From an uncultured Calditrichaceae bacterium (GTDB taxonomy: Bacteria > Calditrichota > Calditrichia > RBG-13-44-9), in the NCBI GenBank assembly GCA_964387645.1, contig CAYLYM010000005.1:2508-66507 (forward strand): 64,000 nucleotides of DNA. Reading direction: 5' to 3'. Under the pieces are notes generated by a model that did not search any database, was not told the DNA's origin, and worked only from the letters and a program-made list of their open reading frames with translations. Every line of letters begins with the position of its first letter. Position 1 is the stretch's first letter. Position numbers and translations under genes: made by a program. Below are positions 2,228 through 37,357 of this stretch, piece by piece.

Positions 2228-2321
2228 AACATTACCGGGTCAAATTTAATAATGTTGACATAAATTTATCAATCGTTTAAATTGATAATTTAAAAAATTA
2301 AGAATATTGGAGGACGGATCC

Positions 2322-4169
2322 TTGAATATTAAAATTCTTACGGTTATTTTAGTTTGTTTTTTGTTTATTTCTCTGCCGGTATATTCTCAAACAAGCGACA
2401 AAGTTCTATTTGATCAGGGACTGCAATTGTATAAGAATAAAAATTTTGAGGCAGCCCAGAACACCTTTTTAAAAATTTTAAAAAATTACCCCAACTCTCG
2501 TTTAATAACAGTTACCAAATTAATGTTAGCGAAATCCTATTATATGCAAAAGGATTATCATTCAGCCTTTATAGTGTGTGATAATTTTTTACAAGTTCAT
2601 AAAAATAGCAGTTATGTTGATGATATTCATTTTTTACGTGGAAAGATTTATTTTCGCCAGAACCAGTACATGCAAGCAGTGGAAGAATGGTTGAATGTTA
2701 TTTATGGCGATGGTGATTTAAGATTAAAAAGACAGGCTGGAAATTTTGTATTCCATACTATGTTAAATTATTTAAACAATAAAGAGTTAACAGCTTTACA
2801 GAAAAAGTATAATGATGAACCACTAAGAGGTCTTATTACTATTGTCCATGCCCAACATTTGATTCAGGAAGGTAATGAACGGGAAGGATATCGAAAATTA
2901 CAATTGTTTTTAGAAAAGTCACCTTATCATTTATATGGAGATATTGCTCGAAGAATACTTGAAGGATCTTCGGGTGCAAATGTAGCTGGAAATACGATTC
3001 TCATTCTAAAATCCCGTCAACAGGAAATGAAAGATATTGCTGAAGCCATTACCAAGGGTGTTTATTATGCTGCCTATGAAATGAGTATCCGTGAACCGCA
3101 AAAAAATATTAGTGTGGATTCAATAGCAATTGAAGGCGGTGTTCTCTCGGCAGCGCAAGTCACTTTAACTGCTTTAAAGAAGAAAACCCCTTTGGTTGTT
3201 GTTGGAGCATTAGGAAATGAAGAAACAGCTGCATTAGCTCTTCTTTCTCGGTATGAACATTTTCCTTTTGTATCGCCATTAAGTTCTCAAACAGGTTTGG
3301 CTGCTATCAGTCCTTACACTTTCCAGATCAACCCAGACGCCGAGATTAAAGGGCGAGTACTTGCCGAATATGCCATTAATGAGCTTGGTGCAAAAACATT
3401 TGCAATATTAGCTCCGGCTGATCTGTATGGACAGCGAATTTCGAGTAGTTTTGAAGAAACCATACTTGAAAATGGTGGCGAGATTGTAGAAAAACAATGG
3501 TACTATGAAAATACACAGGACTTTTCTAGACAATTGAAGGCAATTAGAAAAAAAGGTTTTTATATAACTTTTCGTGATTCAGTCAAAGCAGCCGATTCGA
3601 CTTTAACAGAGGAAGAGATAAAAAACAAATTTAAAGAATATCTAACTGAAGTATTGTTTTCCGATGAAAATACGCGCGGAAAAATAGACTCAACTCAAGT
3701 CCCTTCAACTGGCATAGATGCAGTGTTTATGGCCATTTACCCAAGCGATATCCCATATATTGCGCCACAATTTGCTTTTTATAATATTCAAACTAAACTT
3801 TTAGGAAATGAAGGATGGAATGATCCAGTTCAATTAAAACAAAATCAAATTTATTTAGATGGTCTTATTTATATAACATCTGGATACATCGATTTTGAAT
3901 CTTGGAATTATAAAGAATTTCAAAGCCGGTTCAGACAGAAAATGCATACTACACCCACATTATATCATCTTTTAGGTTATGATATAGGGAAATGGATGAT
4001 TTCAGGTTATCAACCAGGCATGACTCGGCAAGATTTTTGTGATAAGCTTGAGAATAGTCCAAGATTCCAGGGAATTATGGAACGTATTCATTTTGGAGAC
4101 AAACCCAGGGTAAATTCCGAGCTGAATATAATTCATTTCTATCTTGGAGAGTTCATAAAAGTCCGATAA
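2322..4169 (+). CDS. LpoA-like lipoprotein: N-terminal TPR repeats plus periplasmic-binding-protein type 1 (LivK-like) domain
   Basis: GGAGG at 2309-2313, then TTG at 2322 in frame (the listed ORF starts at 2307 inside the RBS). Signal peptide NIKILTVILVCFLFISLPVYSQ; TPR-like repeats at residues ~30-140; C-terminal half is PBP1-like (LVVVGALGNEETAALALL…, AKTFAILAPADLYGQ). Confidence 0.45.
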   Translation: MNIKILTVILVCFLFISLPVYSQTSDKVLFDQGLQLYKNKNFEAAQNTFLKILKNYPNSRLITVTKLMLAKSYYMQKDYHSAFIVCDNFLQVHKNSSYVDDIHFLRGKIYFRQNQYMQAVEEWLNVIYGDGDLRLKRQAGNFVFHTMLNYLNNKELTALQKKYNDEPLRGLITIVHAQHLIQEGNEREGYRKLQLFLEKSPYHLYGDIARRILEGSSGANVAGNTILILKSRQQEMKDIAEAITKGVYYAAYEMSIREPQKNISVDSIAIEGGVLSAAQVTLTALKKKTPLVVVGALGNEETAALALLSRYEHFPFVSPLSSQTGLAAISPYTFQINPDAEIKGRVLAEYAINELGAKTFAILAPADLYGQRISSSFEETILENGGEIVEKQWYYENTQDFSRQLKAIRKKGFYITFRDSVKAADSTLTEEEIKNKFKEYLTEVLFSDENTRGKIDSTQVPSTGIDAVFMAIYPSDIPYIAPQFAFYNIQTKLLGNEGWNDPVQLKQNQIYLDGLIYITSGYIDFESWNYKEFQSRFRQKMHTTPTLYHLLGYDIGKWMISGYQPGMTRQDFCDKLENSPRFQGIMERIHFGDKPRVNSELNIIHFYLGEFIKVR

Positions 4170-4190: not shown

Positions 4191-4448
4191 ATGATTTGTC
4201 AACTTTGTGGAAGAGATGTTGAGAAATGTACTAAACATCATCTTATTCCCAAATCGCAAAATAGTGAAAAATCGGAATTAGCCTACCTCTGTTCCGTTTG
4301 TCATCAAATGTTAAATCATTTATTTTCTAATAAACAGTTATCCAGTAAATTGAATTCTATTGAAGAGCTTAAAAGTCATCCGAAAATAAGAAAATTTTTA
4401 AAATGGGTTCGAAAACAAGATCCAAATAAAAGAATAAAAATCAAATGA
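4191..4448 (+). CDS. small HNH-motif nuclease-like protein (85 aa)
   Basis: CxxR…C…HHLIP…C..CH…H spacing typical of an HNH/zinc-finger nuclease core. Confidence 0.45.
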   Translation: MICQLCGRDVEKCTKHHLIPKSQNSEKSELAYLCSVCHQMLNHLFSNKQLSSKLNSIEELKSHPKIRKFLKWVRKQDPNKRIKIK

Positions 4449-4463
4449 AAATTTTGCTTAAAT

Positions 4464-5084
4464 TTATCCCAGTTTTACACACCAGATAATATCTGCATAG
4501 TTGGTTATGTTATCCTGAATATTGAGTCGAACGACTTTTTGTAAATCAAAATGATCTAAATAATTGAAAATAATATTTCTTAGCCAGTATAGTTCTGCTT
4601 TAAGTTTCCAGTGGTCACCATCACGCTGATAAAATACAACAAATATGTGATTATTCAGAGGATGTAGATTGGATTTTCGAATTCTTCTATATAGCCAATA
4701 TAACAATTCTTCTTTATGAAGTAAAGCATAACGTAGCGTTCTGGCAAACTGGTTTGGATAAACTTGAGATCTTATTTTAAAATTTATTTCTTGTATAGTA
4801 ATTGTTTCTATTTCATTGTAATGATTGTAATTAGGTGTAACAATCTCATGATTAGTAAAAATGAGATATAACCCTTTGTCGCACCAATAATTATACCAGC
4901 GATTTATGGCATATTGTCGAAGGTCTTCTGATAATTTTTCCGTCTTTTCAATAATTTCATCAAAATTATAATTTGAATAGATAAAATTGGATTTTGCATC
5001 AAGATATGCGTCATACTTGTAATGCCAGGTATGTGGTAAAAGGTACCTTTTTCTTAACTCTTTCTGAAGTTTTAAGATATCCAT
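4464..5084 (-). CDS. hypothetical protein (206 aa), convergent with the HNH gene
   Basis: Intact ORF; no motif I can name. Aromatic/Asn-rich. Confidence 0.4.
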   Translation of the reverse strand: MDILKLQKELRKRYLLPHTWHYKYDAYLDAKSNFIYSNYNFDEIIEKTEKLSEDLRQYAINRWYNYWCDKGLYLIFTNHEIVTPNYNHYNEIETITIQEINFKIRSQVYPNQFARTLRYALLHKEELLYWLYRRIRKSNLHPLNNHIFVVFYQRDGDHWKLKAELYWLRNIIFNYLDHFDLQKVVRLNIQDNITNYADIIWCVKLG

Positions 5085-5502: not shown

Positions 5503-5922
5503 ATGCACGAAATAATCAATAGAGATGTTAAGAAGATTCTGAGAGAATATCAAAAAATTGCTGTTGTAGGTATTTCGGACAAAAATTACCGTGATTCCTT
5601 TAATGTTGCCAGCTTTATGCAGAGCAAAGGTTATCATATTATTCCGGTAATTCCCAGGTTGGATAATGTTCTTGGAGAAAGATGTTATCCGTCCTTGCGA
5701 GACATACCTGAGGAAGTGGGTCTGGTGGATATTTTCAGAAGATCTGAGTTTGTTGAGCATATAGTAGACGAAGCCATCGAAATTGGTGCCAAAGCTGTTT
5801 GGATGTAACTGGGCGTGATTAATTCAGCAGCAGCTCAAAAAGCAATTAAAGCAGGGTTGTCGGTGGTTATGAACAGATGTTGGAAAATTGAATATATGCA
5901 CTACGAAATGTTAAAGACCTGA
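5503..5922 (+). pseudogene. CoA-binding domain protein (YccU-like) interrupted by an in-frame TAA at 5806-5808
   Basis: 5503..5805 encodes …AVVGISDKNYRDSFNVA…HIIPV…GAKAVWM. After TAA the same frame continues to TGA at 5920-5922 as LGVINSAAAQKAIKAGLSVVMNRCWKIEY, the conserved C-terminus of this family. Combined length is 139 aa, a normal size. The stop sits where Gln (CAA) is expected. Confidence 0.6.
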
Positions 5923-6310
5923 TTTTTTAAGAAAGTTAATTGAAACAAGGATGTCGGTTATGATTCCTTATACATTGTTAAAGTTTAATAGCATTTTCAA
6001 ATTGCTTATAATTTGGAATTGCATTATTAAATTGTATAGTATTTTTTCTAGAAATACTCTCCTTGAATAATTGTTGATGCCAGCCAATAGATCACTTCAT
6101 AAAAAAGTTTATTTATATTTGTAACGTTTCGACAATTTAATGCATTAAAAAAATAGTTTAATGTGCTAAAGAAGCGAACTAGTCAATAATGAATTATATA
6201 AGGTTGAATAATTAATATTCGTTCTGAATTTTACCAATTAGAGGCCGGTTATAAAAAATACTACTCAAGTTTATAAGAATTGTTTATAATGAAATATTGA
6301 GGGACTGGTT

Positions 6311-6457
6311 ATGCCGCTATACAAATATCGTTGCCTTAAGTGCGATGAAAAGTTTGAAAAATTGGTTCCGTATGCTCAAAGCGATGATATAGAGTGTCCG
6401 AATTGTGGAAGTAAGCAAAAAAGAAACTTATCTCAACATCTGCTACAATTTGTGTAA
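6311..6457 (+). CDS. FmdB-family zinc-ribbon protein (48 aa)
   Basis: MPLYKYRCLKCDEKFE…ECPNCGS: N-terminal xYxYxC..C plus a second CxxC. Paralog of the 8783..9040 gene. Below the ORF-track size cutoff. Confidence 0.5.
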   Translation: MPLYKYRCLKCDEKFEKLVPYAQSDDIECPNCGSKQKRNLSQHLLQFV

Positions 6458-6563
6458 GCAACCACAGTAGCAGTTCCTCAATATCTTCATGCACTTCGAG
6501 TAATATTTCTTTTAGAGAAGCTTGAGTTTCTGGGCGACAGTTTGCTGCCTTTTTGATTTTTTT

Positions 6564-8483
6564 TCAATATTTCCAGATAAGTGAAATGCCTATCTCTTGA
6601 ACGTGGTTAGTATCAAAACTATTAAGACCAGATCCAATCGAGATTAAGTCTGGATAATATCGATATAGATATTTGATATCAAGTTGTAAAATTTCTTTAA
6701 TTTTCCAGCGGAGCAACATCAGCCATTTTTGCCCCCTATGATTTAGCAAAGATGTTCGAAAAGTTCCAGGTAGATCAGGTTCATATTCGAATATTCTTAA
6801 ATTATAATCAGGAATGTCAAAGTTTGTCCAACGACTTAATATTTGACAATTTTTTTTAAATTGTATTTCTATCTGATGATAAATTCCGGTTCCATAAAAT
6901 TTATCTACTCCTTGCAGAGGATATGCCCATCGAATATCAAGCGAATTTTGAAATTTAATTTTGGAACTCAACTTGGAGTAATAAACCAGCCGAAGAGATC
7001 GAATTGATTTTTCAAGTACAGCAACATTTTCGAGATCATTTTTACGATATCGCTGATGAAATTGTAATCTAATCGTTTGTCCAGAGAATCTTTTGCGAAT
7101 TTCTACATGGTAATCTTTATATAAAAACGGCTCGATTTGGCTATTATATAGGTCACGGTATAGATGGACATACCCAGATATATTTGTTTTTCTATGAAGA
7201 TTATAATTAATTAGCAAAGCGATACCTGTTTTATTAATTGGGATATCACTAAGTGTTCCAAAGGCCCTCCCATAGAGAGCAAAATATTGTGGGTGGTAAT
7301 AATAAGTAACAATTTCATATTTCATTTTTTTTCCGAATAAATAGAGGAAATTCTGAAAAGCTGGGAATTTAGACTGGAAAAAACTCACCTCAGAGGTAAT
7401 TCGTATGCTTTTTGTATTCCATGAACCTGCAATGCCAATATGATGTTGTTTCTTACTAAATTCTTTATAAGGTTTATCGAAATTTGATACTATGGCATTT
7501 AATTGGAGATGCAGAGGGCCACTTCGAAAGGACAAGAGTGCTCCTGACAGTATGGATTTCCATAACCCTTTTTTTTGTCTTTCGTTTGATGTTCGGTGCA
7601 GACCCGAAGAATAAATGTTTCGAATTCGGCTACTATCTTTAGAAAGCGTAACATCCAAGTGTCGAGTAGAGTAGAATAAATAAAATTGGGTTTTAGTTGA
7701 TAATATCTTTGAGATTGTGACTCCTCGCAAAAAACTAAATTCATTGCTCGATCGGTTTTCAAATTCTGGTATGTTGAATCCATTTGAGAAAGGCATAACA
7801 GAAGCTGTTAAAGGTAATCCATATGCCGACCATAGCATTAGGCCACATCCGATCCGCATTTGATAATCGCCAATTAAAAGGGAAAAATTGTGATTTAAAT
7901 TTTGGTATTTGAAATGGTAGGTCTGATAATCGAAATAATCTTTTTCTCCATTATCTTTTTCTACCAGAAAGCCCCCAGAGAAAGAAGAATTGCTATTAAA
8001 TAATAAACGATGTTGCCAGTAAAATGGCTTTGAAAAAACATGTTCGTAAAATCCTCGCCGTTTAGGAAATTCCTTGCGAAGGCGAAAGCGATAAATAACA
8101 TGTCCCTTCTTAGAAATGGGTTTTACGGTTACAAAAGGAATAAGGGCTTCATAAAGTTCTTCAGTCATACCTTGAATTGAAAGTAATTCTGTAATATGAT
8201 TAAATCCGTTATGTAAAGAACGAAAATCTATTATTTCTTGAGCGACATGGTTGGGGACAAAAGGGATGCGTTTAAAATCTTCGAGAGTAGCTTTGTTTAA
8301 ATCAAGAGGATTTTCCATTAATTCCCAGAGGTATTCGACCAATTCGAAGTTCTCACCTTCTTCATCTTCAATTTGTTCTAAAATTGTTTCTAAGAATTGA
8401 TTTTCTTGTGCAAATGTCCATTGGAAATGAAAAAGCAAGTTCCAGAGCAGAGTCACACAAAGGATAAAACATATTTTTCTCAT
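6564..8483 (-). CDS. predicted outer-membrane beta-barrel protein with N-terminal ComEA-like helix-hairpin-helix DNA-binding domain
   Basis: Signal peptide MRKICFILCVTLLWNLLF…AQ. Residues ~55-120 (LDLNKATLEDFKRIPFVPNHVAQEIIDFR…IQGMTEELYEALIPFVTV) match the ComEA HhH pattern. The remaining ~500 aa are beta-rich with alternating hydrophobics and end in …LIWKY (aromatic C-terminus). Confidence 0.5.
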   Translation of the reverse strand: MRKICFILCVTLLWNLLFHFQWTFAQENQFLETILEQIEDEEGENFELVEYLWELMENPLDLNKATLEDFKRIPFVPNHVAQEIIDFRSLHNGFNHITELLSIQGMTEELYEALIPFVTVKPISKKGHVIYRFRLRKEFPKRRGFYEHVFSKPFYWQHRLLFNSNSSFSGGFLVEKDNGEKDYFDYQTYHFKYQNLNHNFSLLIGDYQMRIGCGLMLWSAYGLPLTASVMPFSNGFNIPEFENRSSNEFSFLRGVTISKILSTKTQFYLFYSTRHLDVTLSKDSSRIRNIYSSGLHRTSNERQKKGLWKSILSGALLSFRSGPLHLQLNAIVSNFDKPYKEFSKKQHHIGIAGSWNTKSIRITSEVSFFQSKFPAFQNFLYLFGKKMKYEIVTYYYHPQYFALYGRAFGTLSDIPINKTGIALLINYNLHRKTNISGYVHLYRDLYNSQIEPFLYKDYHVEIRKRFSGQTIRLQFHQRYRKNDLENVAVLEKSIRSLRLVYYSKLSSKIKFQNSLDIRWAYPLQGVDKFYGTGIYHQIEIQFKKNCQILSRWTNFDIPDYNLRIFEYEPDLPGTFRTSLLNHRGQKWLMLLRWKIKEILQLDIKYLYRYYPDLISIGSGLNSFDTNHVQEIGISLIWKY

Positions 8484-8782
8484 ATTAAGTTTTTATTTAT
8501 GATGATGTTTGAAAGATGTTTCTGTACTAATCTGGAAAGAATATAAATTTTTGGGGTGAAAAATTCAAGATGATGTACTTAATAATCAAAAGTATTTATT
8601 TTATAAGTAAAGAAGAGTTTTCAACATAGATGAAAGTTTTAGAATTTTTCCAATAAAAGGATATTAGGCAATTTTAATTTTTTTTGAAACAATAAAACCG
8701 TTATTTAATTCAAGTTATCGGTTTTTTATTCTCGGGTAGCAGTTGTGCATTGTTATTTGTTATTCAATGAGATAATATAAGA

Positions 8783-9040
8783 TCAGGGCTTTTCCTTCGT
8801 GTTTTCTTTATTTTTGGACTTTTTATTATTTTTTGAAGATGTATGTCCCGTAAAGTTTTTGTTCTTATAATCAGTAATGTAAAAACCTGAACCTTTAAAA
8901 ATCAAACCTGAGCCGCCAGTAATTACTCGTTCTAATTTGCCTCCACAAGAAGGACAAACTTCTAAGGGCTTATCAATAATACTCTGGAAATATTCGAATT
9001 GGTTACGGCATTTTTTACAACGATATGTATAAGTCGGCAC
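8783..9040 (-). CDS. FmdB-family zinc-ribbon protein
   Basis: MPTYTYRCKKCRNQFE…CPSCGG followed by a Gly/Lys-rich tail. Confidence 0.6.
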   Translation of the reverse strand: MPTYTYRCKKCRNQFEYFQSIIDKPLEVCPSCGGKLERVITGGSGLIFKGSGFYITDYKNKNFTGHTSSKNNKKSKNKENTKEKP

Positions 9041-9054
9041 TATTCATTTCTCCC

Positions 9055-10257
9055 TTAATTATTTTTACTTTCTACCATTTTGTCCATTGTTTCAATTAAC
9101 CGATCCATGCCTTTTTCCAGTTCTGACTGTGAAGCGGCAAACGACAGCCGAATATAATCGTCTGCACCAAAAGCTGCGCCTGGTACGCCTACTAAATATG
9201 AATTTTCAGTTAAAAAGGTGCAAAAATTAATAGAATTATCAATTATTACATCATTTTTTCGGTAACCATAAGCTTCTGAAACTTTGATGAAGAAATAAAA
9301 AGCACCTTGTGGATTGACATAATTAAAATAGGGACGGGAATTTAATCGATTTCGGATATAGTTTCTGCGTTGTTCGAAGGTGACTCGCATTTTTTCGATT
9401 TCATCCTGGGGACCATTGATTGCAGCCAATGCTGCTTTCTGCGAGATGGATGAAGCATTAGAAGTATAATGGCTCTGAATTTTCGACATGGCCTTTACTA
9501 CAGGAAGCGGTCCAGCAGCATAGCCTATTCTCCATCCCGTCATGGCAAAGGATTTAGAGAATCCGTTGATGACGATGGTTCTTTCAATCAAATCTCCAAA
9601 AGTAGCGATGCTCACATGTTTCAATCCATCAAAAATGATTTTTTCATAAATTTCATCTGAAATAATCCATATTTTGTGTTTCATCAAAATTTCTGCCAGG
9701 TTACGAATTTCATCAGGTGTAAGAACAACGCCGGTGGGATTGCTTGGACTGTTCAAAATGAGCGCACGGGTACGAGGTGTTAGATGTTTGTCTATTAATT
9801 CGGGAGTTACCTTAAAATTGCTTTCCCGTGTATCGATAAAAACGGGTTTTGCTCCAGCTATTTTTATTTGCTCGGGGTAACTTACCCAATAGGGAAGAGG
9901 TAATAAAACTTCGTCTCCTTCTTCCACTAATGCCATTAATGTATTTAGAATAGCTTGTTTTGCGCCATTTGACACAATTATCTGTTCTGGTGTGTAATCA
10001 AGATTGTTATCGCTTTTTAGCTTTCTGGCAATTGCATCACGAAGTTCAGGAATGCCAGTATTGGCAGTGTAACGTGTGAATCCTTCTTCAATGGCTTTTA
10101 CGCCAGCAGCGCGAACAAAAGCAGGTGTATTAAAATCAGGCTCTCCGGCTGTTAGATCTATCACATCATAACCTTGAGCTTTAAGTTGCAGGGCTTTTTC
10201 TTTTACTTGAATTGTCTTCGATGTTTCAATTTTTGATATTCTTGAAGCCAATTTCAT
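9055..10257 (-). CDS. class I/II pyridoxal-phosphate aminotransferase (aspartate/aromatic aminotransferase-like)
   Basis: …NGFSKSFAMTGWRIGY… PLP-lysine region. Listed ORF starts with TTG at 10269; ATG at 10257 is preceded by GGGGG with a 5-nt spacer. Confidence 0.8.
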   Translation of the reverse strand: MKLASRISKIETSKTIQVKEKALQLKAQGYDVIDLTAGEPDFNTPAFVRAAGVKAIEEGFTRYTANTGIPELRDAIARKLKSDNNLDYTPEQIIVSNGAKQAILNTLMALVEEGDEVLLPLPYWVSYPEQIKIAGAKPVFIDTRESNFKVTPELIDKHLTPRTRALILNSPSNPTGVVLTPDEIRNLAEILMKHKIWIISDEIYEKIIFDGLKHVSIATFGDLIERTIVINGFSKSFAMTGWRIGYAAGPLPVVKAMSKIQSHYTSNASSISQKAALAAINGPQDEIEKMRVTFEQRRNYIRNRLNSRPYFNYVNPQGAFYFFIKVSEAYGYRKNDVIIDNSINFCTFLTENSYLVGVPGAAFGADDYIRLSFAASQSELEKGMDRLIETMDKMVESKNN

Positions 10258-12524: not shown

Positions 12525-13622
12525 CTATTTGGCGCTATAATAAGTAAAGATTAACCGTGTTGAAAGATTATTATCTGTAATTATCTCTAAATTATATGGA
12601 TATATGGAAAATTTATTAATTTTTATCATTGGAAAAGATTCAACCAAATTACCAATAAAGTTCAAAAGATTTTCTTTCCGCCCATTCAAATATGCATAAT
12701 AAACTGTTTCGCTATAAGTAATGCGATTGGTTATATTTCCTTTTTTGAAATATTGTATTTGAACTCCATATTTTTTCGCCACACTTTGGAACTCATTTGC
12801 AATATTTTTAGTGGTTAGTGCTTTTATTTCAGAAACAGGTTTGGGAGCAACGGTTTTAGGTGGATTCACTCTGGCGCTAAGATCAGCATAAATTTTTTTA
12901 TTTGATTTAGGTTGTACGGCAATAATTCTAAAACCAAAACTTGGGAAAGCTTTTTTCAAATCCATATGAAACCTGGCAATTTGGTCTCGAGAATCTGCCA
13001 GGATAGTTAAATTGATATCAGTTGGTGTCATCACAATGAGAGAAAAATCTGCAGAGCCAGGTTTTTGATTTATAAAGTTTTGTAAATTATTTTTTAAAAA
13101 TCTGTTACTATTTAGGTTTTGCTGATAGATTGGTAATAAAACAACTTCTTTAGATTTGATTGTCTGAGTTTCACTTAGTTGAGTTGACAAAGGCTGTTTG
13201 GGTAATTCTTTTGTTGTAGCAACTTCTTCTCCACTTTTCGTTAACTGGTAAACAATGAAAATAATGAGGAGAAGTAATAAAACAATACTTCCAAATATGA
13301 AAAAAGGTTTTTTTACACTTAGCGTTGACTTAAATATGTTGAATTCATCCTCCTGCACGGCATAAGTGCCTCTTTGCAATGTTTCCTCTTCCTCAGTCTC
13401 GGGTTGTTCTTCTTCAATTAAAAAAGATTCATTACTATCTTTAGCTTCGGTCTGAGGTTCAGCCTTATCAAAAAACGATTCTGTAGATGTAAAAGAAAGG
13501 TCTATATTTTCTTTGCGTTCAGGTAGTTTTTTGCTTACAAATGGCTCTTCTTCCAGTTTTTCTGTTTTAGATGTATCTATCAAAGTTAAAGGATTGGCGG
13601 TTTTTAAATTAATTTTAGCCAT
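12525..13622 (-). CDS. bitopic membrane protein, PilN/PilO-like candidate
   Basis: ~120-aa acidic low-complexity N-terminus, one TM helix (FFIFGSIVLLLLLIIFIVY), ~230-aa periplasmic domain. Positioned after a PilM-like gene. Confidence 0.3.
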   Translation of the reverse strand: MAKINLKTANPLTLIDTSKTEKLEEEPFVSKKLPERKENIDLSFTSTESFFDKAEPQTEAKDSNESFLIEEEQPETEEEETLQRGTYAVQEDEFNIFKSTLSVKKPFFIFGSIVLLLLLIIFIVYQLTKSGEEVATTKELPKQPLSTQLSETQTIKSKEVVLLPIYQQNLNSNRFLKNNLQNFINQKPGSADFSLIVMTPTDINLTILADSRDQIARFHMDLKKAFPSFGFRIIAVQPKSNKKIYADLSARVNPPKTVAPKPVSEIKALTTKNIANEFQSVAKKYGVQIQYFKKGNITNRITYSETVYYAYLNGRKENLLNFIGNLVESFPMIKINKFSIYPYNLEIITDNNLSTRLIFTYYSAK

Positions 13623-13647
13623 GAAAGTTTACCCTCTCTTTCTTGCG

Positions 13648-14586
13648 TTAGAAAATATTCGAGATGGGTTCAACAAATTGAAAAATGTTTTCAGCAGAAA
13701 GAAGAGCATCTTGAATTTTTAACTGAAACGCAGAATTTGTATCAACATTGAATAATTTTATCGGTAATTGGACCTGGGCCTGAATTATATCTAACCATTC
13801 AGCTTTAAAATGATAACCATAAAAGACTATTGTTTTAATATTGAAAAGAGATCGATCTAAAACTGGTGGCGATTGAATTTCATCTAATAGTAAATCAAAT
13901 GAGGATAAAAGATATTCTTCATCGATTTGTTCAATGGTATTCAGGTCAGTATTATATGGTTTAAAATCGTAGTGGATAAATTGTTCTGGAGTGGAAATTA
14001 TAATATCATAGCCTCTTCGTTGCCAGCCTATAATAAGAGTTTGTCCCTTTGCATCTGGATATAATTGCCGATACAATTCATCGACAGTGAAACACGAGGG
14101 TGTTAGGACATCAAGTTCCAATCCAGAAAACTCAGCAATATCCTGAAAATATTGAATTACTTTTTTTCTAACAGCCAGAATTAAAATTTCTGTCAACCCT
14201 TCACTGGCTTCAACTTTTTCTAATTGATAGATTTGGTAATTTTCAGAAGGTTCTTCCCAAATTTTTTCTAGTTCAAAAAAAATAAATTCATTATAATTTT
14301 CTGAAGAAATTGTAGAATCTAAAGCTATCTTTTTGATCAGAGAAAATTTGCTTGGGAATGTAAAGCGAACTTTTTCTTTCGAGAAACTATTTTGTTCGAT
14401 AAGGGTTACCAGTTTTTTAGATATTTGGTTAATCGATTCGGTCTGGTTTAAGCTTTTGTGATCTATGATCAAGGGCAGTGAATCACTCACTGCCCTTCTT
14501 ATTACTATATTACTTTCATCTAAAATCACATCTGCCCATTGTACAAAGTCTTCATGGAAGGAAACACTATTGATCTGTTTATTCAT
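13648..14586 (-). CDS. PilM-like actin-fold pilus assembly protein candidate
   Basis: Loose pattern match to PilM (…FIFFELEKIWEEP… vs PilM AVRWEAERYIPF; GLELDVLTPSCF vs GLVPVVLDVKPF); 312 aa. From memory. Confidence 0.35.
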   Translation of the reverse strand: MNKQINSVSFHEDFVQWADVILDESNIVIRRAVSDSLPLIIDHKSLNQTESINQISKKLVTLIEQNSFSKEKVRFTFPSKFSLIKKIALDSTISSENYNEFIFFELEKIWEEPSENYQIYQLEKVEASEGLTEILILAVRKKVIQYFQDIAEFSGLELDVLTPSCFTVDELYRQLYPDAKGQTLIIGWQRRGYDIIISTPEQFIHYDFKPYNTDLNTIEQIDEEYLLSSFDLLLDEIQSPPVLDRSLFNIKTIVFYGYHFKAEWLDIIQAQVQLPIKLFNVDTNSAFQLKIQDALLSAENIFQFVEPISNIF

Positions 14587-14598
14587 AAAACCTCTTTA

Positions 14599-16290
14599 TT
14601 ATTGTTCCCAACTTTTTTCTCCATTCACGATGGAACCATGGTTGATATGTTTTTTGGTAAATATAAGATAAATTGGTTCTTCTACTCCTTCCAAAGCTTT
14701 TAGTAAATCTTGTTCAAGTTTATGGCCAGCTTCTGTTAATGCCTGAGCAAAAGCCTGATCGAAACTGGATTTTATTTGAGAAACAATTTCTAAAGCCGGT
14801 GCAAAGGTTTCAGAATGCGAAATGATTCTCCTTCTGGTAGAAGCAGGCAAACGTGTTACCGTGATCATTGAATCTAATTGTTTAAGTTTTTTATTAAAAT
14901 AATTTATCTGGTCTTCTAAATCTTTAATGTTTCCTGTTTTTATTCGAGTTGCCAGTGTATCAATTGGGTTCAATATATCTTCAATCATGGGTTTAAGGAC
15001 TGATAATTTATTTTCAGTTTCAAGAGTCTTTACGAAATTCTGGTAATCATGCGAGTATTTATAAAAAAAGACGTTACTAAGGTCGCGCATTTCTGCTTGT
15101 AGCTCTTTCAAGCTCAACAAGATGTCAGTTTTTCTTCTTATGAAGACACGGTTTTTTTCCATTACTTCTTTGGTTTGTGCAATGATAGTATCAAGTTGAT
15201 TTAACTTATCGATATAAGGAAGATCTTTTACCGGCTCGATGTCTGCTATAAACTTTTGCTGAAATTCAGAAAGCAAATTAGGACATTCCACGGTTATCTT
15301 ATTACTATCGATACTAATAATGTAAGGCTCCTGACAGTCTGGACAGGAAAAATTTTCTTCGGTAAAATTAATAAGCAAGGAATCGACCTCACTTAAAGCA
15401 GTTAATCCATATTTTTTTGATATCATAAAATATTCTGGTGAAAGAAACTTCTCATGGAGAGCGGCCATATTTTCTCGTTCGCTCTGTAACTGATTTTGAT
15501 CTAAAGATAAATCAGTGTTATTTAAGGTATTTACGCTAGTATTTATTCTATCAATAAATTTTTTCAATCGATCATGTACACTAGAAACCTTAACAATATC
15601 TGTTTTACGAATAGCATCGATTAAACTATTAATTTTTTTGTATTCTGCATTCCAATAGTCTGTAAAATCCGATTTTTCGTATTGAGGGAAGTATACCAGA
15701 ATTGAATCGACATAGTTCAATGCATGGAGAACACTATTCTGGAGTGAGTAGTCAGATACTTTTTCCTTCATAGACCTAAGAGAATCCACAAATAATTTTA
15801 CACGGCTAAAATTTGGGAATGTAGCACTCGAATCCATTTGCATTATTTCATGGTTAATCTCCTTGCTCAAAGAAGCCACGTTTTCGTATTTACGGAAATA
15901 ACGTTCATTTCCAATCAGGTCTCCGGTAATTTCAAATGCGGCTTGTGAAATAGTGGAAATTTGCTCAATACTAGGGATAGAAAGAATATTGTCAACCACT
16001 TGAATGAAACTTCGAGTGAGTGAAACGATTGACTGACGCTGTTGAAGTCCTGAATCATTTTGAACAAATGTTAAAAGCTTAGAAAGCGTGTCGGTGTAAG
16101 ATTCTGTTGCACGATAAAAGAAACGTTCGGCTTCATAAATGGTGGTTAAATTATTTCGACACGCTTTAGTAACCTTTTCCTCTTTTTCCCAGATTTTGTT
16201 GGGAATTATTATAACTGCAATCAATAGCAGTGAAACGAGAACAATTAGAATTTCGAGAATAATAGAACCTTTCGGACGTTGAGCAGCCAT
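14599..16290 (-). CDS. large protein with type IV prepilin-like N-terminus (giant pilin/pseudopilin candidate)
   Basis: MAAQRPKG|SIILEILIVLVSLLLIAVIIIPN: basic leader, Gly at -1, Glu at +5, ~20 hydrophobic residues then IP, as in class III signal peptides. CPDCQ…ECPN cysteine pair mid-protein. Confidence 0.5.
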   Translation of the reverse strand: MAAQRPKGSIILEILIVLVSLLLIAVIIIPNKIWEKEEKVTKACRNNLTTIYEAERFFYRATESYTDTLSKLLTFVQNDSGLQQRQSIVSLTRSFIQVVDNILSIPSIEQISTISQAAFEITGDLIGNERYFRKYENVASLSKEINHEIMQMDSSATFPNFSRVKLFVDSLRSMKEKVSDYSLQNSVLHALNYVDSILVYFPQYEKSDFTDYWNAEYKKINSLIDAIRKTDIVKVSSVHDRLKKFIDRINTSVNTLNNTDLSLDQNQLQSERENMAALHEKFLSPEYFMISKKYGLTALSEVDSLLINFTEENFSCPDCQEPYIISIDSNKITVECPNLLSEFQQKFIADIEPVKDLPYIDKLNQLDTIIAQTKEVMEKNRVFIRRKTDILLSLKELQAEMRDLSNVFFYKYSHDYQNFVKTLETENKLSVLKPMIEDILNPIDTLATRIKTGNIKDLEDQINYFNKKLKQLDSMITVTRLPASTRRRIISHSETFAPALEIVSQIKSSFDQAFAQALTEAGHKLEQDLLKALEGVEEPIYLIFTKKHINHGSIVNGEKSWEQ

Positions 16291-29074: not shown

Positions 29075-30931
29075 ATGGGTCTTTTTAAGCACAGCTTTTT
29101 GACTTCTTTGATGTTATTTTTGATTTTTTTACCAAGATTTGTCTTGGGTGAGGAAGTTGAAAAAACTTACTATCTTGAAGACACTGTAGTTGTTTTTGCA
29201 AACCGTTTTGAGTTACCTCTGAAATCGAGTGTGAATGCTTTTGATCTGATTGATGTGAAAGAATATTCTCCACTGGCCACTCATTCTTTGTTACAAATGG
29301 TTGACATGCTTTCTCCATCGGCTTTTGTGCTGGAAAAGAAAATTTTGGGTTTTGGTGTGGGATCGGCAGGTGCCGGACTGCTCAATCTGCGTGGAATGGG
29401 AGGTAAACCAAATTCAGGTGTTCTTTTTCTGATTAATGGACGGCCGGATTTTATGGGTATATTCGGACATCCCCTGCCCGATGTCTACGGCTTAATGGAT
29501 GCTGAACGTGTCGAGGTTTTGAAGGGCCCTGCTTCTACCGTATTTGGTTCGAACGCCATGGCGGGAGTAGTCAATGTTGTTTATAGTCAGGCAGAACAGG
29601 ATTATCTTAAGCTCCGGGTAGAGGCTGGAAAATATCGAACCATCCAACAACATGTCTCAGGTGCAAAGCATTTGGGAAAAACACATTTTCGCTGGAATAT
29701 ACTGCATCAGTCCAGTGCTGGACATATCGCTTCTTCTGGATTTGAAAGTTGGAGTGTATCAACAAGATTCGACAGACAAATTAATAGAAATTGGTCGATC
29801 AGTGTGGATGGTCGTTACGTTCCTTATCAATTTGATGATCCATCAATGGATGAAGATGTAGCCAACCTGGGGAATTATGCCAAAATCCGTCGGGGTATGT
29901 TGGATATGCAACTTCTTGGACAAACCGGGAAAATAAACCATTCTTTTCATGTTTATTCCAATTTAGGACATCACCGTTTTTATGATGGTTTCGAGTCCCA
30001 TGATTTTACCTATGGATTTTCTTCATATCAGTGGTTAAAATATTCCTCAAAATTGCAGTTTGGTGCAGGGATGGATTTGCTTCATTATGGTGGAAAAGCG
30101 AAAAACGTGGTTTTTCCAGCGGCGCCACCTAAACCCGAACTTCATGCAGTTACATCACTTGGGAGTTATCTTTTGGCTATTTATTCGCCATTAAAAAATT
30201 GGAATATGAAAGGTGGAATAAGATATCATCACGCTTCTTTAAATATAAACAAAATTTCACCTAGTTTAGGAATATCTTTTTTCCCTTTTTATAATCTAAA
30301 AATATATGCAAACTGGAGTGATGGTTTCCGACTGCCTACATTACAGGAATTGTATCTTTTTCCACCTTCAAACGAAAATCTGGATCCAGAAGATGTAAAA
30401 AGTTATGAGCTGGGTGGCGCATTTTACTTTGATAATTCGAATTATCTTGAAGTGTGTTATTTTAAAAATCACATTAAAAATAAAATACAGATCACTGCTA
30501 ATCCTGCTAGCCAACCGCCCTTCATGTTTATGAATAGCGGTAAGGTAAATCAATGGGGAATGGAATACAAATTGGTAGTTCAACCATCGTCTAGTATGAT
30601 GACGCAATTTTCTTATAGTTATTTAGATCCAGATCAGATGACTACTTACAATCCTGCTCATATGTTTAAGTATTTAATTCAACTCAATTTGACTAAGATA
30701 AAACTTATGTGTTCGGGGAAATTTATAAAAGATATTTATGCTGACAATAATAAAAATATGAAGTTACCGGATTACCATGTGTTGAATGTCGCTCTCTCTT
30801 ATCCCATTGGTTCTTTTCTACTGGATGTTCAATTGAGAAATGTATTGAATAGATATTATGAAATTTTGCCTGGATATCCAGCGCCTGATTTACATTTTTT
30901 AATGGGTGTTACTTATCAATTGAGTATGTAA
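29075..30931 (+). CDS. TonB-dependent outer membrane receptor
   Basis: GGAGG RBS; signal peptide; plug domain (…ERVEVLKGPASTVFGSNAMAGVVNVV); 618 aa beta-barrel. Confidence 0.8.
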   Translation: MGLFKHSFLTSLMLFLIFLPRFVLGEEVEKTYYLEDTVVVFANRFELPLKSSVNAFDLIDVKEYSPLATHSLLQMVDMLSPSAFVLEKKILGFGVGSAGAGLLNLRGMGGKPNSGVLFLINGRPDFMGIFGHPLPDVYGLMDAERVEVLKGPASTVFGSNAMAGVVNVVYSQAEQDYLKLRVEAGKYRTIQQHVSGAKHLGKTHFRWNILHQSSAGHIASSGFESWSVSTRFDRQINRNWSISVDGRYVPYQFDDPSMDEDVANLGNYAKIRRGMLDMQLLGQTGKINHSFHVYSNLGHHRFYDGFESHDFTYGFSSYQWLKYSSKLQFGAGMDLLHYGGKAKNVVFPAAPPKPELHAVTSLGSYLLAIYSPLKNWNMKGGIRYHHASLNINKISPSLGISFFPFYNLKIYANWSDGFRLPTLQELYLFPPSNENLDPEDVKSYELGGAFYFDNSNYLEVCYFKNHIKNKIQITANPASQPPFMFMNSGKVNQWGMEYKLVVQPSSSMMTQFSYSYLDPDQMTTYNPAHMFKYLIQLNLTKIKLMCSGKFIKDIYADNNKNMKLPDYHVLNVALSYPIGSFLLDVQLRNVLNRYYEILPGYPAPDLHFLMGVTYQLSM

Positions 30932-36895: not shown

Positions 36896-36910
36896 TATTG
36901 AAGGTGGATA

Positions 36911-37357
36911 ATGAGAGGGCCATATCGGAAAAGAATGATATTGCAGCCGCCGCAATTTAAAAATTTTAAACCTGGGGGAATACCAAGTCGGTTTTTAAAA
37001 TCCATTATTCTTACAGTGGATGAATATGAAGCAATACGACTGGCCGATCATCTTGGTCTTGAACACCAGGAAGCAGCAGAGCGAATGAAGATATCAAGAC
37101 CGACTTTTACCCGATTAATTGAACAAGCAAGGCAAAAAGTTGCCACAGCATTGGTAGAAGGAATGGAATTAATAATTGAAGGAGGTAATATATATTTTAT
37201 CAATACGTTAAGTCATTGTAAAGATTGTGGTGAAACTATTCCTCAACCATTTACTGAGGAAATTGATCAGTGTCCTGATTGTGGTTCAGAAAATGTTGAA
37301 AATTTAGCCTGGCAGTTTATAGGAAGAGGAAGAAAAGGTTATAGAAGGGGACGTTAA
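36911..37357 (+). CDS. DUF134 (UPF0251) predicted DNA-binding protein with C-terminal CxxC…CxxC zinc ribbon and RG-rich tail
   Basis: …LTVDEYEAIRLADHLGLEHQEAAERMKISRPTFTRLIEQARQKVA… (sigma-70 region-4-like HTH typical of DUF134); CKDCG…CPDCG; GRGRKGYRRGR tail. Confidence 0.65.
   Translation: MRGPYRKRMILQPPQFKNFKPGGIPSRFLKSIILTVDEYEAIRLADHLGLEHQEAAERMKISRPTFTRLIEQARQKVATALVEGMELIIEGGNIYFINTLSHCKDCGETIPQPFTEEIDQCPDCGSENVENLAWQFIGRGRKGYRRGR

What the first reader, a model, noticed from the sequence alone, without database searches (positions are those of the whole stretch)
6311..9040. Outer-membrane beta-barrel candidate fused to a ComEA-type helix-hairpin-helix domain, flanked by two FmdB zinc-ribbon paralogs
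The 639-aa secreted protein has an N-terminal region (LDLNKATLEDFKRIPFVPNHVAQEIIDFR…GMTEELYEALIPFVTV) that matches the DNA-binding HhH module of competence protein ComEA. About 500 residues of amphipathic beta-strand-like sequence follow, ending in an aromatic residue (…LIWKY) as in OMP barrels. ComEA is normally a small periplasmic or inner-membrane-anchored protein. A ComEA domain tethered to an outer-membrane barrel would suggest a DNA-capturing porin. Two paralogous FmdB-type zinc-ribbon mini-genes (6311..6457 plus-strand, 8783..9040 minus-strand) bracket the gene.
Basis: partly seen in the sequence, partly recalled or inferred. Interest (0 to 1): 0.55.

Follow-up and report, generated by a model that had tools for sequence, protein, structure and literature searches.

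The report
Outer-membrane barrel with ComEA-like domain
The gene encodes a large outer-membrane pore-type protein carrying a small domain shaped like the DNA-binding part of competence protein ComEA; it belongs to a very large but unstudied family in Bacteroidota-type bacteria, and the sequence features ComEA uses to hold DNA are missing, so a DNA-capturing role is possible but unsupported.

Summary

The architecture is not rare: a profile search finds more than 6,000 cluster representatives (E<=1e-30), and the 150 best listed are all full-length, 640-745 aa. [quoted passage not shown]

The HhH module fails the ComEA family cut-offs. In 175 members the G-x-G hairpins occur 0 and 1 times, and ComEA's lysine positions are rarely basic. 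The N-terminal region is acidic (99%) and the estimated barrel lumen basic (100%).

In Bacteroidota, 65 of 70 loci have a PorV/PorQ-like small barrel gene directly upstream; the window lacks it.

The zinc-ribbon bracketing is not conserved, and the 48-aa copy is a frameshifted remnant.

Function remains unknown. My best guess is a gated outer-membrane channel whose N-terminal module is a plug or adaptor.

The parts
6564..8483 (-). Gene for the 639-aa HhH-barrel protein (stop codon 6564..6566)
   Evidence: ORF list. It is 100% identical to P0001 from three JGI metagenome contigs. Full-length homologues of 637-642 aa occur in Calditrichota, so the gene is intact.
8409..8483 (-). Signal peptide, residues 1-25 (MRKICFILCVTLLWNLLFHFQWTFA), with cleavage before Gln26
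   Evidence: Sequence inspection: a basic n-region, a hydrophobic core and T-F-A before the cleavage site. The model shows a helix at residues 2-22. Gln26 is conserved in >=90% of the family. There is no lipobox. No signal-peptide predictor was available.
8310..8408 (-). Acidic helical segment, residues 26-58 (net charge about -12)
   Evidence: Net charge of residues 27-58 is -12 in the window and the family median is -9. The model has helices at 29-38 and 46-57, with low pLDDT at 18-44.
8124..8309 (-). ComEA-type helix-hairpin-helix module (HHH_3), residues 59-120, with degenerate hairpins (PFVP and QGMT)
6567..8102 (-). Predicted 24-stranded outer-membrane beta-barrel, residues 128-639. Conserved motifs lie in the nominally extracellular loops: EKDxGE (L2), GDYQ...GxGLxLWS (L3), GLHRT (L4) and YEYEPDL (L11). 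The C-terminal beta-signal is ...ISLIWKY.
8783..9040 (-). FmdB-family zinc-ribbon gene (85 aa, GTG start), 14 nt downstream of the aminotransferase gene and 299 nt upstream of the HhH-barrel gene
   Evidence: Zn_ribbon_8 at 62 bits and TIGR02605 at 65 bits, both above cut-off. It was called as a gene in the JGI contigs. It is not found next to the HhH-barrel gene in the other Calditrichota loci.
6311..6525 (+). FmdB-family zinc-ribbon gene remnant, convergent with the barrel gene. The ORF 6311..6457 (48 aa) is intact, and the ancestral Ser-rich tail lies in another frame up to TGA 6523..6525.
   Evidence: Zn_ribbon_8 at 52 bits and TIGR02605 at 54 bits. Orthologues of 67-69 aa in L004/L006, L007 and L009 carry a Gly/Ser tail. 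The window tail 'KKKLISTSATICVSNHSSSSSISSCTSS...' is out of frame after the A6 run near 6417-6422. The same sequence appears in three independent contigs, and L001 has Cys11->Arg.

Best explanation
The gene encodes a Sec-exported, BAM-inserted outer-membrane protein. It is a 24-stranded beta-barrel (residues 128-639) whose N-terminus carries an acidic helical stretch and a ComEA-fold HhH module (residues 26-120), held about 7 residues from the first strand.

It is a divergent Calditrichota member (21-26% identical to the other members in the 28-sequence alignment, the named ones being Bacteroidota) of a very large, uncharacterised family. In Bacteroidota this family is encoded in a two-gene operon with a PorV/PorQ-like small barrel.

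The mechanism I think most likely is a gated outer-membrane channel or translocon.
- The strongly conserved 'extracellular' loops L2, L3, L4 and L11 fold into the lumen and form a constriction or functional site.
- The lumen is lined with basic residues.
- The acidic HhH-containing N-terminal module acts as a periplasmic plug, gate or protein-docking adaptor, as non-DNA-binding HhH modules do in PsbU and GspK. It is not a classical DNA clamp.

The substrate is unknown. An anionic envelope or extracellular polymer would fit the charge pattern.

What is shown: domain composition, barrel fold, family size, partner-gene conservation, loss of the ComEA DNA-contact signature, and the charge pattern. 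What is inferred: periplasmic placement of the module, loops folding into the lumen, and channel or plug behaviour.

The two FmdB zinc-ribbon genes are unrelated neighbours.
For: Structure:
- AlphaFold2 pLDDT 82, pTM 0.78.
- 24 strands with 2-5-residue periplasmic turns alternating with longer loops.
- A C-terminal aromatic residue in 137/175 members.

Family:
- 6,006 representatives at E<=1e-30, and the 150 best are all full-length, 640-745 aa.
- The closest relatives are Calditrichota MAGs.

Partner gene:
- 65 of 70 Bacteroidota-type loci have a ~276-aa gene immediately upstream on the same strand. It often overlaps by 4, 1 or 11 nt.
- It hits the NCBIfam PorV/PorQ family below cut-off, at 50-59 bits against 90.

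HhH module not ComEA-like in detail:
- It is below the ComEA cut-offs.
- G-x-G hairpins occur in 0/175 and 1/175 members.
- Lys/Arg at the ComEA lysine positions occurs in 12/175 and 30/175 members.
- Asp sits at the second-hairpin Gly position in 124/175 members.

Charge pattern:
- Residues 27-120 are net negative in 99% of members (median -11, window -17).
- The barrel is net positive in 93% (median +15, window +34).
- Strand positions assigned as lumen-facing are net positive in 175/175 (median +11, window +18).

Loops: the invariant residues cluster in loops L2, L3, L4 and L11 rather than in the strands.
Against: - No coordinates or PAE were available, so I could not see whether the HhH module sits inside, under or away from the barrel.
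- The lumen-facing assignment is a crude hydrophobic-dyad estimate. Part of the positive charge may reflect the Lys-rich composition of a 33% GC genome.
- N-terminal and barrel charges are weakly positively correlated across the family (Spearman 0.26). That gives no extra support for electrostatic pairing.
- A degenerate HhH module can still bind nucleic acid through other surfaces.
- The window protein lacks the PorV-like partner found in Bacteroidota, so it may work differently from the bulk of the family.
- There are no experimental data for any member.
Confidence: 0.5

Rival explanations
1. DNA-capturing or DNA-uptake porin. The basic 24-stranded barrel conducts DNA across the outer membrane. 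The periplasmic ComEA-like HhH module binds the incoming DNA and acts as a ratchet. In this reading it replaces the PilQ secretin plus free ComEA of classical Gram-negative competence systems.
For: - The module has the ComEA-type fold and passes Pfam HHH_3.
- By topology it lies on the periplasmic side.
- The estimated lumen is basic in all 175 members.
- How DNA crosses the outer membrane in competent Bacteroidota without type IV pili is stated to be unknown (PMC11532111).
- A type-IV-pilus-like gene cluster (pilin-like, PilM-like) lies 4 kb upstream on the same strand in the window.
Against: - The G-x-G hairpins and the lysines at ComEA's DNA-contact positions are absent family-wide, and a conserved Asp replaces the second-hairpin Gly.
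- The module and its N-terminal extension are strongly acidic.
- Scores are far below the ComEA family cut-offs.
- In 86 loci the conserved neighbour is a PorV/PorQ-like barrel, not comEC, comF or dprA.
- The pilus-like cluster is separated from the gene by five unrelated genes (rsmD, coaD, pta, an aminotransferase gene and the 85-aa FmdB gene). No homologue of it turned up within the 6-kb flanks of the gene in other Calditrichota loci.
- The Riemerella transposon screen recovered a different HhH protein, with its HhH at residues 236-301. That screen had only 3,000 mutants and was not saturating (PMC8459023).
- P. gingivalis uses a separate gene annotated as ComEA, with its ComEA domain at residues 94-165 (PMC11532111).
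Confidence: 0.2
2. Outer-membrane enzyme or structural protein rather than a channel. In one version, the conserved Asp/Glu/His/Arg residues in the loops (EKDxGE, GDYQ, GLHRT, YEYEPDL) form a catalytic or metal-binding site, as in OmpT, OMPLA or PagL. In another version, the protein is an envelope tether or assembly factor whose HhH module binds a periplasmic partner.
For: - The invariant polar residues D177, E180, D185, D206, R253, H296, R297, E301, E365, E568 and D570 concentrate in loops or at strand ends.
- Pairing with a PorV-like protein parallels the PorV-SprA and BamG-BamA complexes. This rests on the NCBIfam names and on my own knowledge.
- The family is very widespread, which would fit a housekeeping envelope role.
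Against: - There is no sequence or fold match to any known outer-membrane enzyme.
- From my own knowledge, known outer-membrane enzymes have 8-12 strands rather than 24.
- A barrel of this size must be either open or plugged.
Confidence: 0.2
3. The two FmdB zinc-ribbon genes form a functional unit with the barrel gene, for example as regulators.
For: - They are the only two FmdB-like ORFs found in the 64-kb window (among small, <160 aa, CxxC...CxxC ORFs) and lie within 300 nt of the barrel gene on either side.
- A downstream convergent FmdB gene also occurs in at least three related Calditrichota contigs.
Against: - The upstream copy is absent next to the gene in all other fetched Calditrichota loci. 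The Bacteroidota loci were not screened for FmdB ORFs, but their conserved upstream neighbour is the PorV/PorQ-like gene.
- The downstream copy is convergent, so it is not co-transcribed. It was not detected in the other related Calditrichota loci (no zinc-ribbon gene called in L005; no motif match in L008 or L010-L015).
- In the window it is frameshifted, and one strain has a Cys->Arg change in the first CxxC.
- FmdB proteins lack signal peptides, so they would be cytoplasmic while the barrel is in the outer membrane.
Confidence: 0.04
4. The protein is a soluble periplasmic protein and not a barrel (the refutation condition named by the first reader).
For: None found.
Against: - The model is confident, with 24 long antiparallel strands and a loop pattern typical of outer-membrane proteins.
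- Every high-ranking fold match to the beta-rich part is a membrane barrel.
- The C-terminal aromatic beta-signal is conserved.
Confidence: 0.03

Closest known systems
ComEA (competence DNA receptor; Pfam HHH_3, TIGR01259/TIGR00426; structures 8dss, 8dfk, 2duy)
   Different: - ComEA is small, with chains of 148-157 aa in 8dss and 8dfk. From my own knowledge it is soluble or anchored to the inner membrane.
- Here the module is fused to a 510-residue outer-membrane barrel.
- Scores are far below the ComEA cut-offs.
- The G-h-G hairpins and DNA-contact lysines are replaced.
- The region is acidic.
Non-DNA-binding extracytoplasmic HhH modules: PsbU (photosystem II 12-kDa extrinsic protein) and the GspK pseudopilin alpha-domain
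   Same: There are weak direct hits: PsbU NF002708 and 8wql, GspK PF21687 and NF037980. The second hairpin follows the same 'G-h-T/D' variant (PsbU PGLT, window QGMT). That these modules serve for protein-protein contact is from my own knowledge.
   Different: Neither is fused to a barrel. The similarity is weaker than to ComEA.
Large plugged outer-membrane barrels: TonB-dependent transporters (22 strands, N-terminal plug) and the chaperone-usher protein FimD/PapC (24 strands, internal plug)
   Different: There are no Plug, TonB_dep_Rec or Usher Pfam hits. Sequence identity is 6-11% and TM-scores are <=0.49. The N-terminal domain is an HhH module, not a plug fold.
PorV/PorQ-family small barrels paired with a large barrel (PorV-SprA of the type IX secretion system; BamG-BamA of the Bacteroidota BAM complex)
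   Same: In Bacteroidota the family's gene is translationally coupled to a PorV/PorQ-like ~276-aa barrel in 65/70 loci. This suggests a two-barrel outer-membrane complex.
   Different: The partner scores below the PorV family cut-off. The large barrel is unrelated to SprA or BamA. The Calditrichota window has no such partner.
Outer-membrane proteins with a periplasmic anchoring domain (OmpM with an SLH domain, OmpA-like proteins)
   Different: From my own knowledge, OmpM and OmpA barrels are much smaller (about 16 and 8 strands) and their periplasmic domains bind the cell wall. The HhH domain has no known cell-wall ligand.

Membership tests
Pfam HHH_3 (PF12836) helix-hairpin-helix domain | Score at or above the Pfam gathering threshold (27 bits) | tested here: met
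   48 bits, E=1.3e-12, residues 59-119 matching profile positions 5-65 of 65.
ComEA (NCBIfam TIGR01259 comE; TIGR00426 ComEA HhH repeat region) | Score at or above the curated cut-offs (152.35 and 53.1 bits) | tested here: not met
   27.6 and 21.3 bits. Bacteroidota members score even lower.
ComEA | Two canonical G-h-G hairpins followed by Lys residues that contact the DNA backbone | tested here: not met
   In the alignment to Geobacillus and Bacillus ComEA, LPGIGPAKA aligns with IPFVPNHVA, and VTGIGEKTLEKLK aligns with IQGMTEELYEALI. Across the family, G-x-G occurs in 0/175 and 1/175 members, and K/R at the lysine positions in 12/175 and 30/175.
ComEA | Small periplasmic or inner-membrane-anchored protein | tested here: not met
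   The protein is 639 aa, with a 24-stranded outer-membrane barrel after the module.
ComEA | Sequence-independent dsDNA binding and a requirement for transformation | not testable with these tools
   This needs a biochemical assay and genetics.
Outer-membrane beta-barrel protein (BAM substrate) | N-terminal Sec signal peptide | tested here: met
   By inspection only: MRK, a hydrophobic core, then TFA|Q. Gln at +1 is conserved in >=90% of members.
Outer-membrane beta-barrel protein (BAM substrate) | An even number of antiparallel amphipathic strands, with short periplasmic turns and longer external loops | tested here: met
   24 strands, 11 turns of 2-5 aa and 12 loops of 5-42 aa. Hydrophobic dyad alternation is seen in the strands.
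Outer-membrane beta-barrel protein (BAM substrate) | C-terminal beta-signal ending in an aromatic residue | tested here: met
   ...ISLIWKY. The last residue is aromatic in 137/175 members, Phe in 126.
Outer-membrane beta-barrel protein (BAM substrate) | Fold similarity to solved outer-membrane barrels | tested here: met
TonB-dependent transporter | Plug domain (PF07715) and TonB_dep_Rec barrel (PF00593) | tested here: not met
   There are no such hits at E<=0.1. A genuine TonB-dependent transporter in the same window (29075..30931) hits both.
Chaperone-usher outer-membrane usher | Usher Pfam domain and adjacent chaperone and pilin genes | tested here: not met
   There is no Usher hit, and no chaperone or fimbrial genes lie next to the gene.
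[quoted passage not shown] | Full-length homology, including the motifs EKDxGE, GDYQ..GxGLxLWS, FLRG, GLHRT and YExExDL | tested here: met
   All 18 invariant columns of the 28-sequence alignment are present in the window protein. The profile search lists full-length matches only among its best 150.
Uncharacterised 'HhH + 24-strand barrel' family | A translationally coupled PorV/PorQ-like ~276-aa gene directly upstream (seen in 65/70 Bacteroidota-type loci) | tested here: not met
   hmmsearch with a profile of three partner proteins finds nothing in the window or in the 10 Calditrichota-clade loci searched (best E=0.32). In the window, the upstream neighbour is the FmdB gene.
FmdB family zinc ribbon (TIGR02605 / PF09723) | Score above cut-off with the CxxC...CxxC motif | tested here: met
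   The 85-aa ORF scores 65.3 and 62 bits. The 48-aa ORF scores 53.8 and 52 bits. The cut-offs are 31.3 and 34.4.
FmdB family zinc ribbon | An intact gene including the Ser/Gly-rich C-terminal tail | tested here: not met
   This applies to the 48-aa copy only. Its tail is out of frame, whereas orthologues are 67-69 aa. The same frameshift appears in 4 assemblies, and one strain has Cys->Arg. The 85-aa copy is intact.

The most novel reading that the evidence does not exclude
The family could be the missing outer-membrane DNA conduit of bacteria in the Bacteroidota-Calditrichota group that lack a type IV pilus and secretin. The basic 24-stranded barrel would pass DNA. The acidic, DNA-mimicking N-terminal HhH module would plug it at rest and be displaced by incoming DNA, or would hand the DNA to free ComEA. 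In Bacteroidota, the PorV-like partner would gate the complex.
Probability: 0.12. Interest if true: 0.85.

Novelty: new variant of a known kind. Interest (0 to 1): 0.42.

Why it matters
If the barrel-plus-HhH family is a real transport machine, it is among the larger outer-membrane protein families still without a function. It has more than 6,000 cluster representatives at 50% identity, and no Pfam or NCBIfam model covers the barrel. My searches found no paper on it. In Bacteroidota it also has a conserved PorV-like partner.

It offers a concrete candidate for an open question, namely how DNA or another anionic polymer crosses the outer membrane in these phyla. Genetically tractable species such as P. 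gingivalis, R. anatipestifer and F. johnsoniae could settle this with one knockout each.

For this window alone the result is modest. The gene is an ordinary, intact, divergent member of that family. The zinc-ribbon 'bracketing' is incidental.

Tried and rejected
- The AlphaFold-database fold search (afdb50) was unavailable.
- The 28-sequence alignment was too diverse for a genome scan. A 7-sequence alignment worked but reached only Calditrichota.
- Sequence searches of the PDB hit only the HhH region. No solved relative of the barrel exists.
- Pfam and NCBIfam have no model for the barrel or for the Bacteroidota partner.
- Literature searches found no description of the family. I combined HhH, ComEA, PorV, outer membrane, Bacteroidota and BT3167.
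- The Riemerella HhH competence protein RA0C_RS02645 (HhH at residues 236-301, three HhH motifs) and P. gingivalis PGN_0421 (annotated ComEA; ComEA domain at residues 94-165) have their HhH regions placed differently, so I did not treat them as members of this family; their lengths and sequences were not checked.
- The promoter and terminator scan of 6200..9200 showed no excess over shuffles.
- The Rfam scan of 5800..9400 gave only a sub-threshold Na+ riboswitch hit on the wrong strand.
- The repeat search found nothing meaningful.
- The test for anticorrelated N-terminal and barrel charge came out negative (Spearman +0.26).
- The pilus-like cluster is not linked to the gene in the other fetched Calditrichota loci, where only the CoA-binding gene is syntenic.
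- No ComEC, DprA, PilQ, PilB or PilT was found among the window ORFs scanned; a few ORFs of 150 aa or more were not scanned.
Full report
**1. What is at the coordinates**

The interval 6311..9040 holds three ORFs.
- A 48-aa ORF at 6311..6457 (+).
- A 639-aa ORF at 6564..8483 (-).
- An 85-aa ORF at 8783..9040 (-).

The window is AT-rich (about 33% GC around the gene) and carries ordinary chromosomal genes: hrcA, dnaJ, uvrA, feoB, pta, coaD and a TonB-dependent transporter. The 639-aa protein is 100% identical to a protein found on three JGI metagenome contigs with the same gene order. Its closest relatives (36-47% identity) all come from Calditrichota or Calditrichaceae MAGs. The organism is therefore very probably a member of Calditrichota.

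**2.

HhH module. Residues 59-119 match Pfam HHH_3 at 48 bits, above the 27-bit cut-off. In a profile search of PDB sequences, only this region finds relatives. They are ComEA of Geobacillus and Bacillus, EEPD1, Tex, TEFM, KIF22 and, weakly, GspK and PsbU.

Barrel. An AlphaFold2 model built on 28 homologues has pLDDT 82 and pTM 0.78. It shows helices up to residue 117 and beta-strands from 128 to 638. I read 24 strands from the DSSP string. Eleven turns of 2-5 residues alternate with twelve loops of 5-42 residues. This is the classic outer-membrane topology, and by convention it places both termini, and hence the HhH module, on the periplasmic side.

- OmpM1;
- many TonB-dependent transporters;
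- AlgE, Wzi and MtrB.

Termini. The C-terminus ...ISLIWKY has the alternating hydrophobic pattern and terminal aromatic residue of a BAM beta-signal. In the family the last residue is Phe in 126 of 175 members and aromatic in 137. The N-terminus looks like a signal-peptidase-I signal peptide cut before a conserved Gln. This is by inspection only.

Zinc ribbons. Both small ORFs exceed the FmdB/Zn_ribbon_8 cut-offs. They are 39% identical over 41 residues.

**3. The architecture is common, not exceptional**

A word-indexed search found 29 full-length homologues of 634-742 aa. [quoted passage not shown]

An exhaustive profile search of 1.84 billion cluster representatives found 6,006 proteins at E<=1e-30. 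The 150 best all cover the whole profile at 640-745 aa.

A third search seeded with a Flavobacteriales-like member gave 1,773 hits at E<=1e-30 among the 8,000 candidates scored. One is named "ComEA family DNA-binding protein [Halocola ammonii]".

The barrel part has no Pfam or NCBIfam model. Six full-text literature searches found no paper that describes the family. The family is therefore visible in databases but uncharacterised. The window protein is a divergent branch, 21-26% identical to the other members in the 28-sequence alignment.

**4. The HhH module has the ComEA fold but not ComEA's DNA-contact signature**

The protein scores 27.6 bits against TIGR01259 (cut-off 152) and 21.3 bits against TIGR00426 (cut-off 53).

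In the residue-by-residue alignment to Geobacillus ComEA, two changes stand out.
- LPGIGPAKA aligns with IPFVPNHVA.
- VTGIGEKTLEKLK aligns with IQGMTEELYEALI.

I aligned 175 diverse family members and tabulated these columns.
- The first hairpin is [G/Y/F/P]-[L/F/I]-L-[S/N/T], with G-x-G in 0 of 175 members.
- The second hairpin is G-F-D, with G-x-G in 1 of 175 and Asp in 124 of 175.
- The positions of ComEA's lysines are Gln (151 of 175) and Glu/Ala/Asn/Gln. Lys or Arg occurs there in 12 and 30 of 175 members.

The residues that are conserved (N63, A65, L70, L76, R88, G92, E99, L100, P116, F117) are the structural core of the fold.

Residues 27-58 are strongly acidic: -12 in the window, family median -9. 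Residues 27-120 are net negative in 99% of members, with a median of -11 and -17 in the window. Charge alone is not decisive, because the ComEA HhH modules from the PDB are themselves about -1 to -2. The loss of hairpin glycines and lysines, and the gain of a hairpin Asp, do argue against classical HhH-DNA contacts. They resemble the non-DNA-binding extracytoplasmic HhH modules of PsbU and GspK, which also give weak hits.

**5. Features of the barrel**

The invariant or nearly invariant residues lie mostly in the nominally extracellular loops or at strand ends rather than in the strand bodies.
- EKDxGE and D185 in L2.
- GDYQ...GxGLxLWS in L3, the longest loop at 42 residues.
- FLRG at the start of strand 6.
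- GLHRT and E301 in L4.
- YEYEPDL in L11.

Surface loops are normally the most variable part of an outer-membrane protein. Their conservation here suggests that they fold into the lumen as a constriction or functional site. This is an inference; I had no coordinates.

The barrel is basic: +34 in the window, family median +15, positive in 93% of members. A crude assignment of lumen-facing strand positions by hydrophobic dyad gives +18 in the window and a positive value in all 175 members. Acidic N-terminal module plus basic lumen is therefore a family-wide pattern. Two readings fit it.
- The module docks as a plug or gate.
- The pore conducts an anionic polymer.

The two charges are not anticorrelated across the family (Spearman +0.26). 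That test gave no extra support for electrostatic pairing.

**6. Genomic context**

In the window the gene is the last of a co-directional string. The order is a pilin-like gene, a PilM-like gene, a gene for a 365-aa bitopic protein, rsmD, coaD, pta, an aminotransferase gene, the 85-aa FmdB gene, a 299-nt gap, and then the barrel gene. No promoter or terminator signal stands out, and no Rfam element is present.

In other Calditrichota the upstream neighbours differ (ligA, nth, a sulfatase gene). Only a convergent CoA-binding-protein gene, and in at least three contigs a convergent FmdB gene, recur downstream.

In Bacteroidota the picture is different and sharp. I fetched 80 metagenomic loci and added six found earlier. 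I clustered all neighbouring ORFs.
- 65 of the 70 loci with at least 1 kb of upstream sequence have the same ~276-aa gene immediately upstream on the same strand.
- It commonly overlaps the barrel gene by 4, 1 or 11 nt.
- This partner has no Pfam family.
- Two of the three partner proteins scanned match the NCBIfam PorV/PorQ family below cut-off (50-59 bits against 90); one also has faint PorV, PorQ and BamG hits.
- Its homologues are all "hypothetical protein".
- Downstream genes vary. A GT87 glycosyltransferase follows in one genome.

A profile of the partner finds nothing in the window or in the Calditrichota loci. The bulk of the family thus looks like a two-barrel outer-membrane module. 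The window protein is a partner-less version.

**7. The zinc ribbons**

The 85-aa gene is intact and follows the aminotransferase gene. It is next to the barrel gene only in this species.

The 48-aa ORF is the orthologue of 67-69-aa FmdB genes in related contigs. Their Gly/Ser tail corresponds here to a different reading frame after an A6 run near 6417-6422. The same frameshift is present in three independent JGI assemblies. One of them also has Cys11->Arg in the first CxxC. The JGI gene calls omit this ORF. It is best read as a decaying gene.

Neither zinc ribbon has a signal peptide. One is convergent with the barrel gene. Neither association extends beyond close relatives, so I reject a functional link.

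**8. Interpretation**

Two points are firmly supported.
- The protein is an outer-membrane 24-stranded barrel with a periplasmic N-terminal module of ComEA fold.
- It is a member of a very large uncharacterised family.

My best mechanistic reading has about 0.5 confidence overall, with about 0.9 for the fold and much less for the mechanism. I read the protein as a gated channel or translocon. The conserved loops would form the lumenal site. The acidic HhH module would be a plug or adaptor rather than a DNA clamp.

Its appeal is that the outer-membrane route of DNA in competent Bacteroidota is explicitly unknown (PMC11532111). The HhH signature, the acidity, the gene neighbourhood and the existing competence screens (PMC8459023, PMC11532111) do not point to it.

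An enzymatic or structural role is a further alternative (about 0.2).

**9. Novelty and score**

The architecture is already annotated by domain in public records, and the window copy is an ordinary member. What is new is descriptive.
- The barrel has 24 strands with conserved lumenal-loop motifs.
- The HhH is degenerate.
- The charge pattern is family-wide.
- Bacteroidota members have a near-universal PorV-like partner.
- Calditrichota members lack it.

I rate it a new variant of a known kind, namely a large outer-membrane barrel with a periplasmic N-terminal domain, and of moderate interest.

Noticed in passing
window 6311..6525 (+): The downstream FmdB zinc-ribbon gene is frameshifted relative to its 67-69-aa orthologues. 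The Ser-rich tail continues in another frame after an A6 run near 6417-6422. The identical frameshift appears in three independent metagenome contigs, and one strain (L001) also has Cys11->Arg in the first CxxC. It is probably a decaying gene rather than an assembly error.
   Followed up: yes
window 5503..5922 (+): The CoA_binding_2 gene ends at an in-frame TAA (5806..5808) where orthologues have Gln (VWMQLGV). The frame then continues, still conserved (LGVINSAAAQKAIKAGLSVVMNRCWKIEY), to TGA 5920..5922. This is a recent nonsense mutation or a read-through site. Both genes downstream of the barrel gene therefore look disrupted.
   Followed up: partly
window 12525..16290 (-): A type-IV-pilus-like cluster with no above-threshold family hits.
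- A 563-aa protein has a prepilin-type N-terminus (RPKG|SIILEILIVL...) and weak PilA, ComGC and GspG hits.
- A 312-aa protein is PilM-like (TIGR01175 24.5 bits against a cut-off of 133; PF11104 21.6 bits against 27).
- A 365-aa protein is bitopic.
No secretin or ATPase was found among the window ORFs scanned. No homologue of the cluster was found within the 6-kb flanks of the barrel gene in other Calditrichota loci.
   Followed up: partly
L016 6164..6991, L017 6180..7004, L018 6171..7004, L020 8001..8729, L021 8001..8819, and 65 of the 70 loci among L016-L101 that have at least 1 kb of upstream sequence: A conserved, uncharacterised ~276-aa PorV/PorQ-like (FadL-type) outer-membrane barrel gene is translationally coupled to the HhH-barrel gene in Bacteroidota. 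It has no Pfam family, and all homologues are 'hypothetical protein'. It is absent from Calditrichota loci.
   Followed up: yes
window 4191..4448 (+) and 4464..5084 (-): An 85-aa HNH nuclease-like ORF resembles HlpB (NF058586, 83 bits, below the 130-bit cut-off). It is present in the window and in contig L001 but missing from the otherwise syntenic strain L002, so it is a small variable or mobile gene. The adjacent 206-aa ORF has no family hit.
   Followed up: no
window 2307..4169 (+): A 620-aa exported protein combines an N-terminal BamD/YfiO-like TPR region with a periplasmic-binding-protein (Peripla_BP_6 / ANF_receptor) domain. This is an unusual fusion.
   Followed up: no
window 8406..8411 (-), residues 25-26 of the barrel protein: The predicted signal-peptide cleavage site is followed by Gln, which is conserved in >=90% of the family. 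From my own knowledge this matches the 'Q-rule' (pyroglutamate N-termini) described for Bacteroidota exported proteins. Here it appears in a Calditrichota protein.
   Followed up: no
L021 10947..12104; L020 10831..12150: In two long Bacteroidota contigs (4.3-4.4 Mb) the partner-barrel pair is followed on the same strand by a third gene. One is a GT87-family membrane glycosyltransferase. The other is a 439-aa protein with no family hit. This is a possible hint of a glycan-related role, but it is not conserved across loci.
   Followed up: partly
window 40649..40861 (+) and 36902..37357 (+): Two further small CxxC...CxxC zinc-ribbon ORFs lie elsewhere in the window. They do not have the FmdB N-terminal motif.
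   Followed up: no
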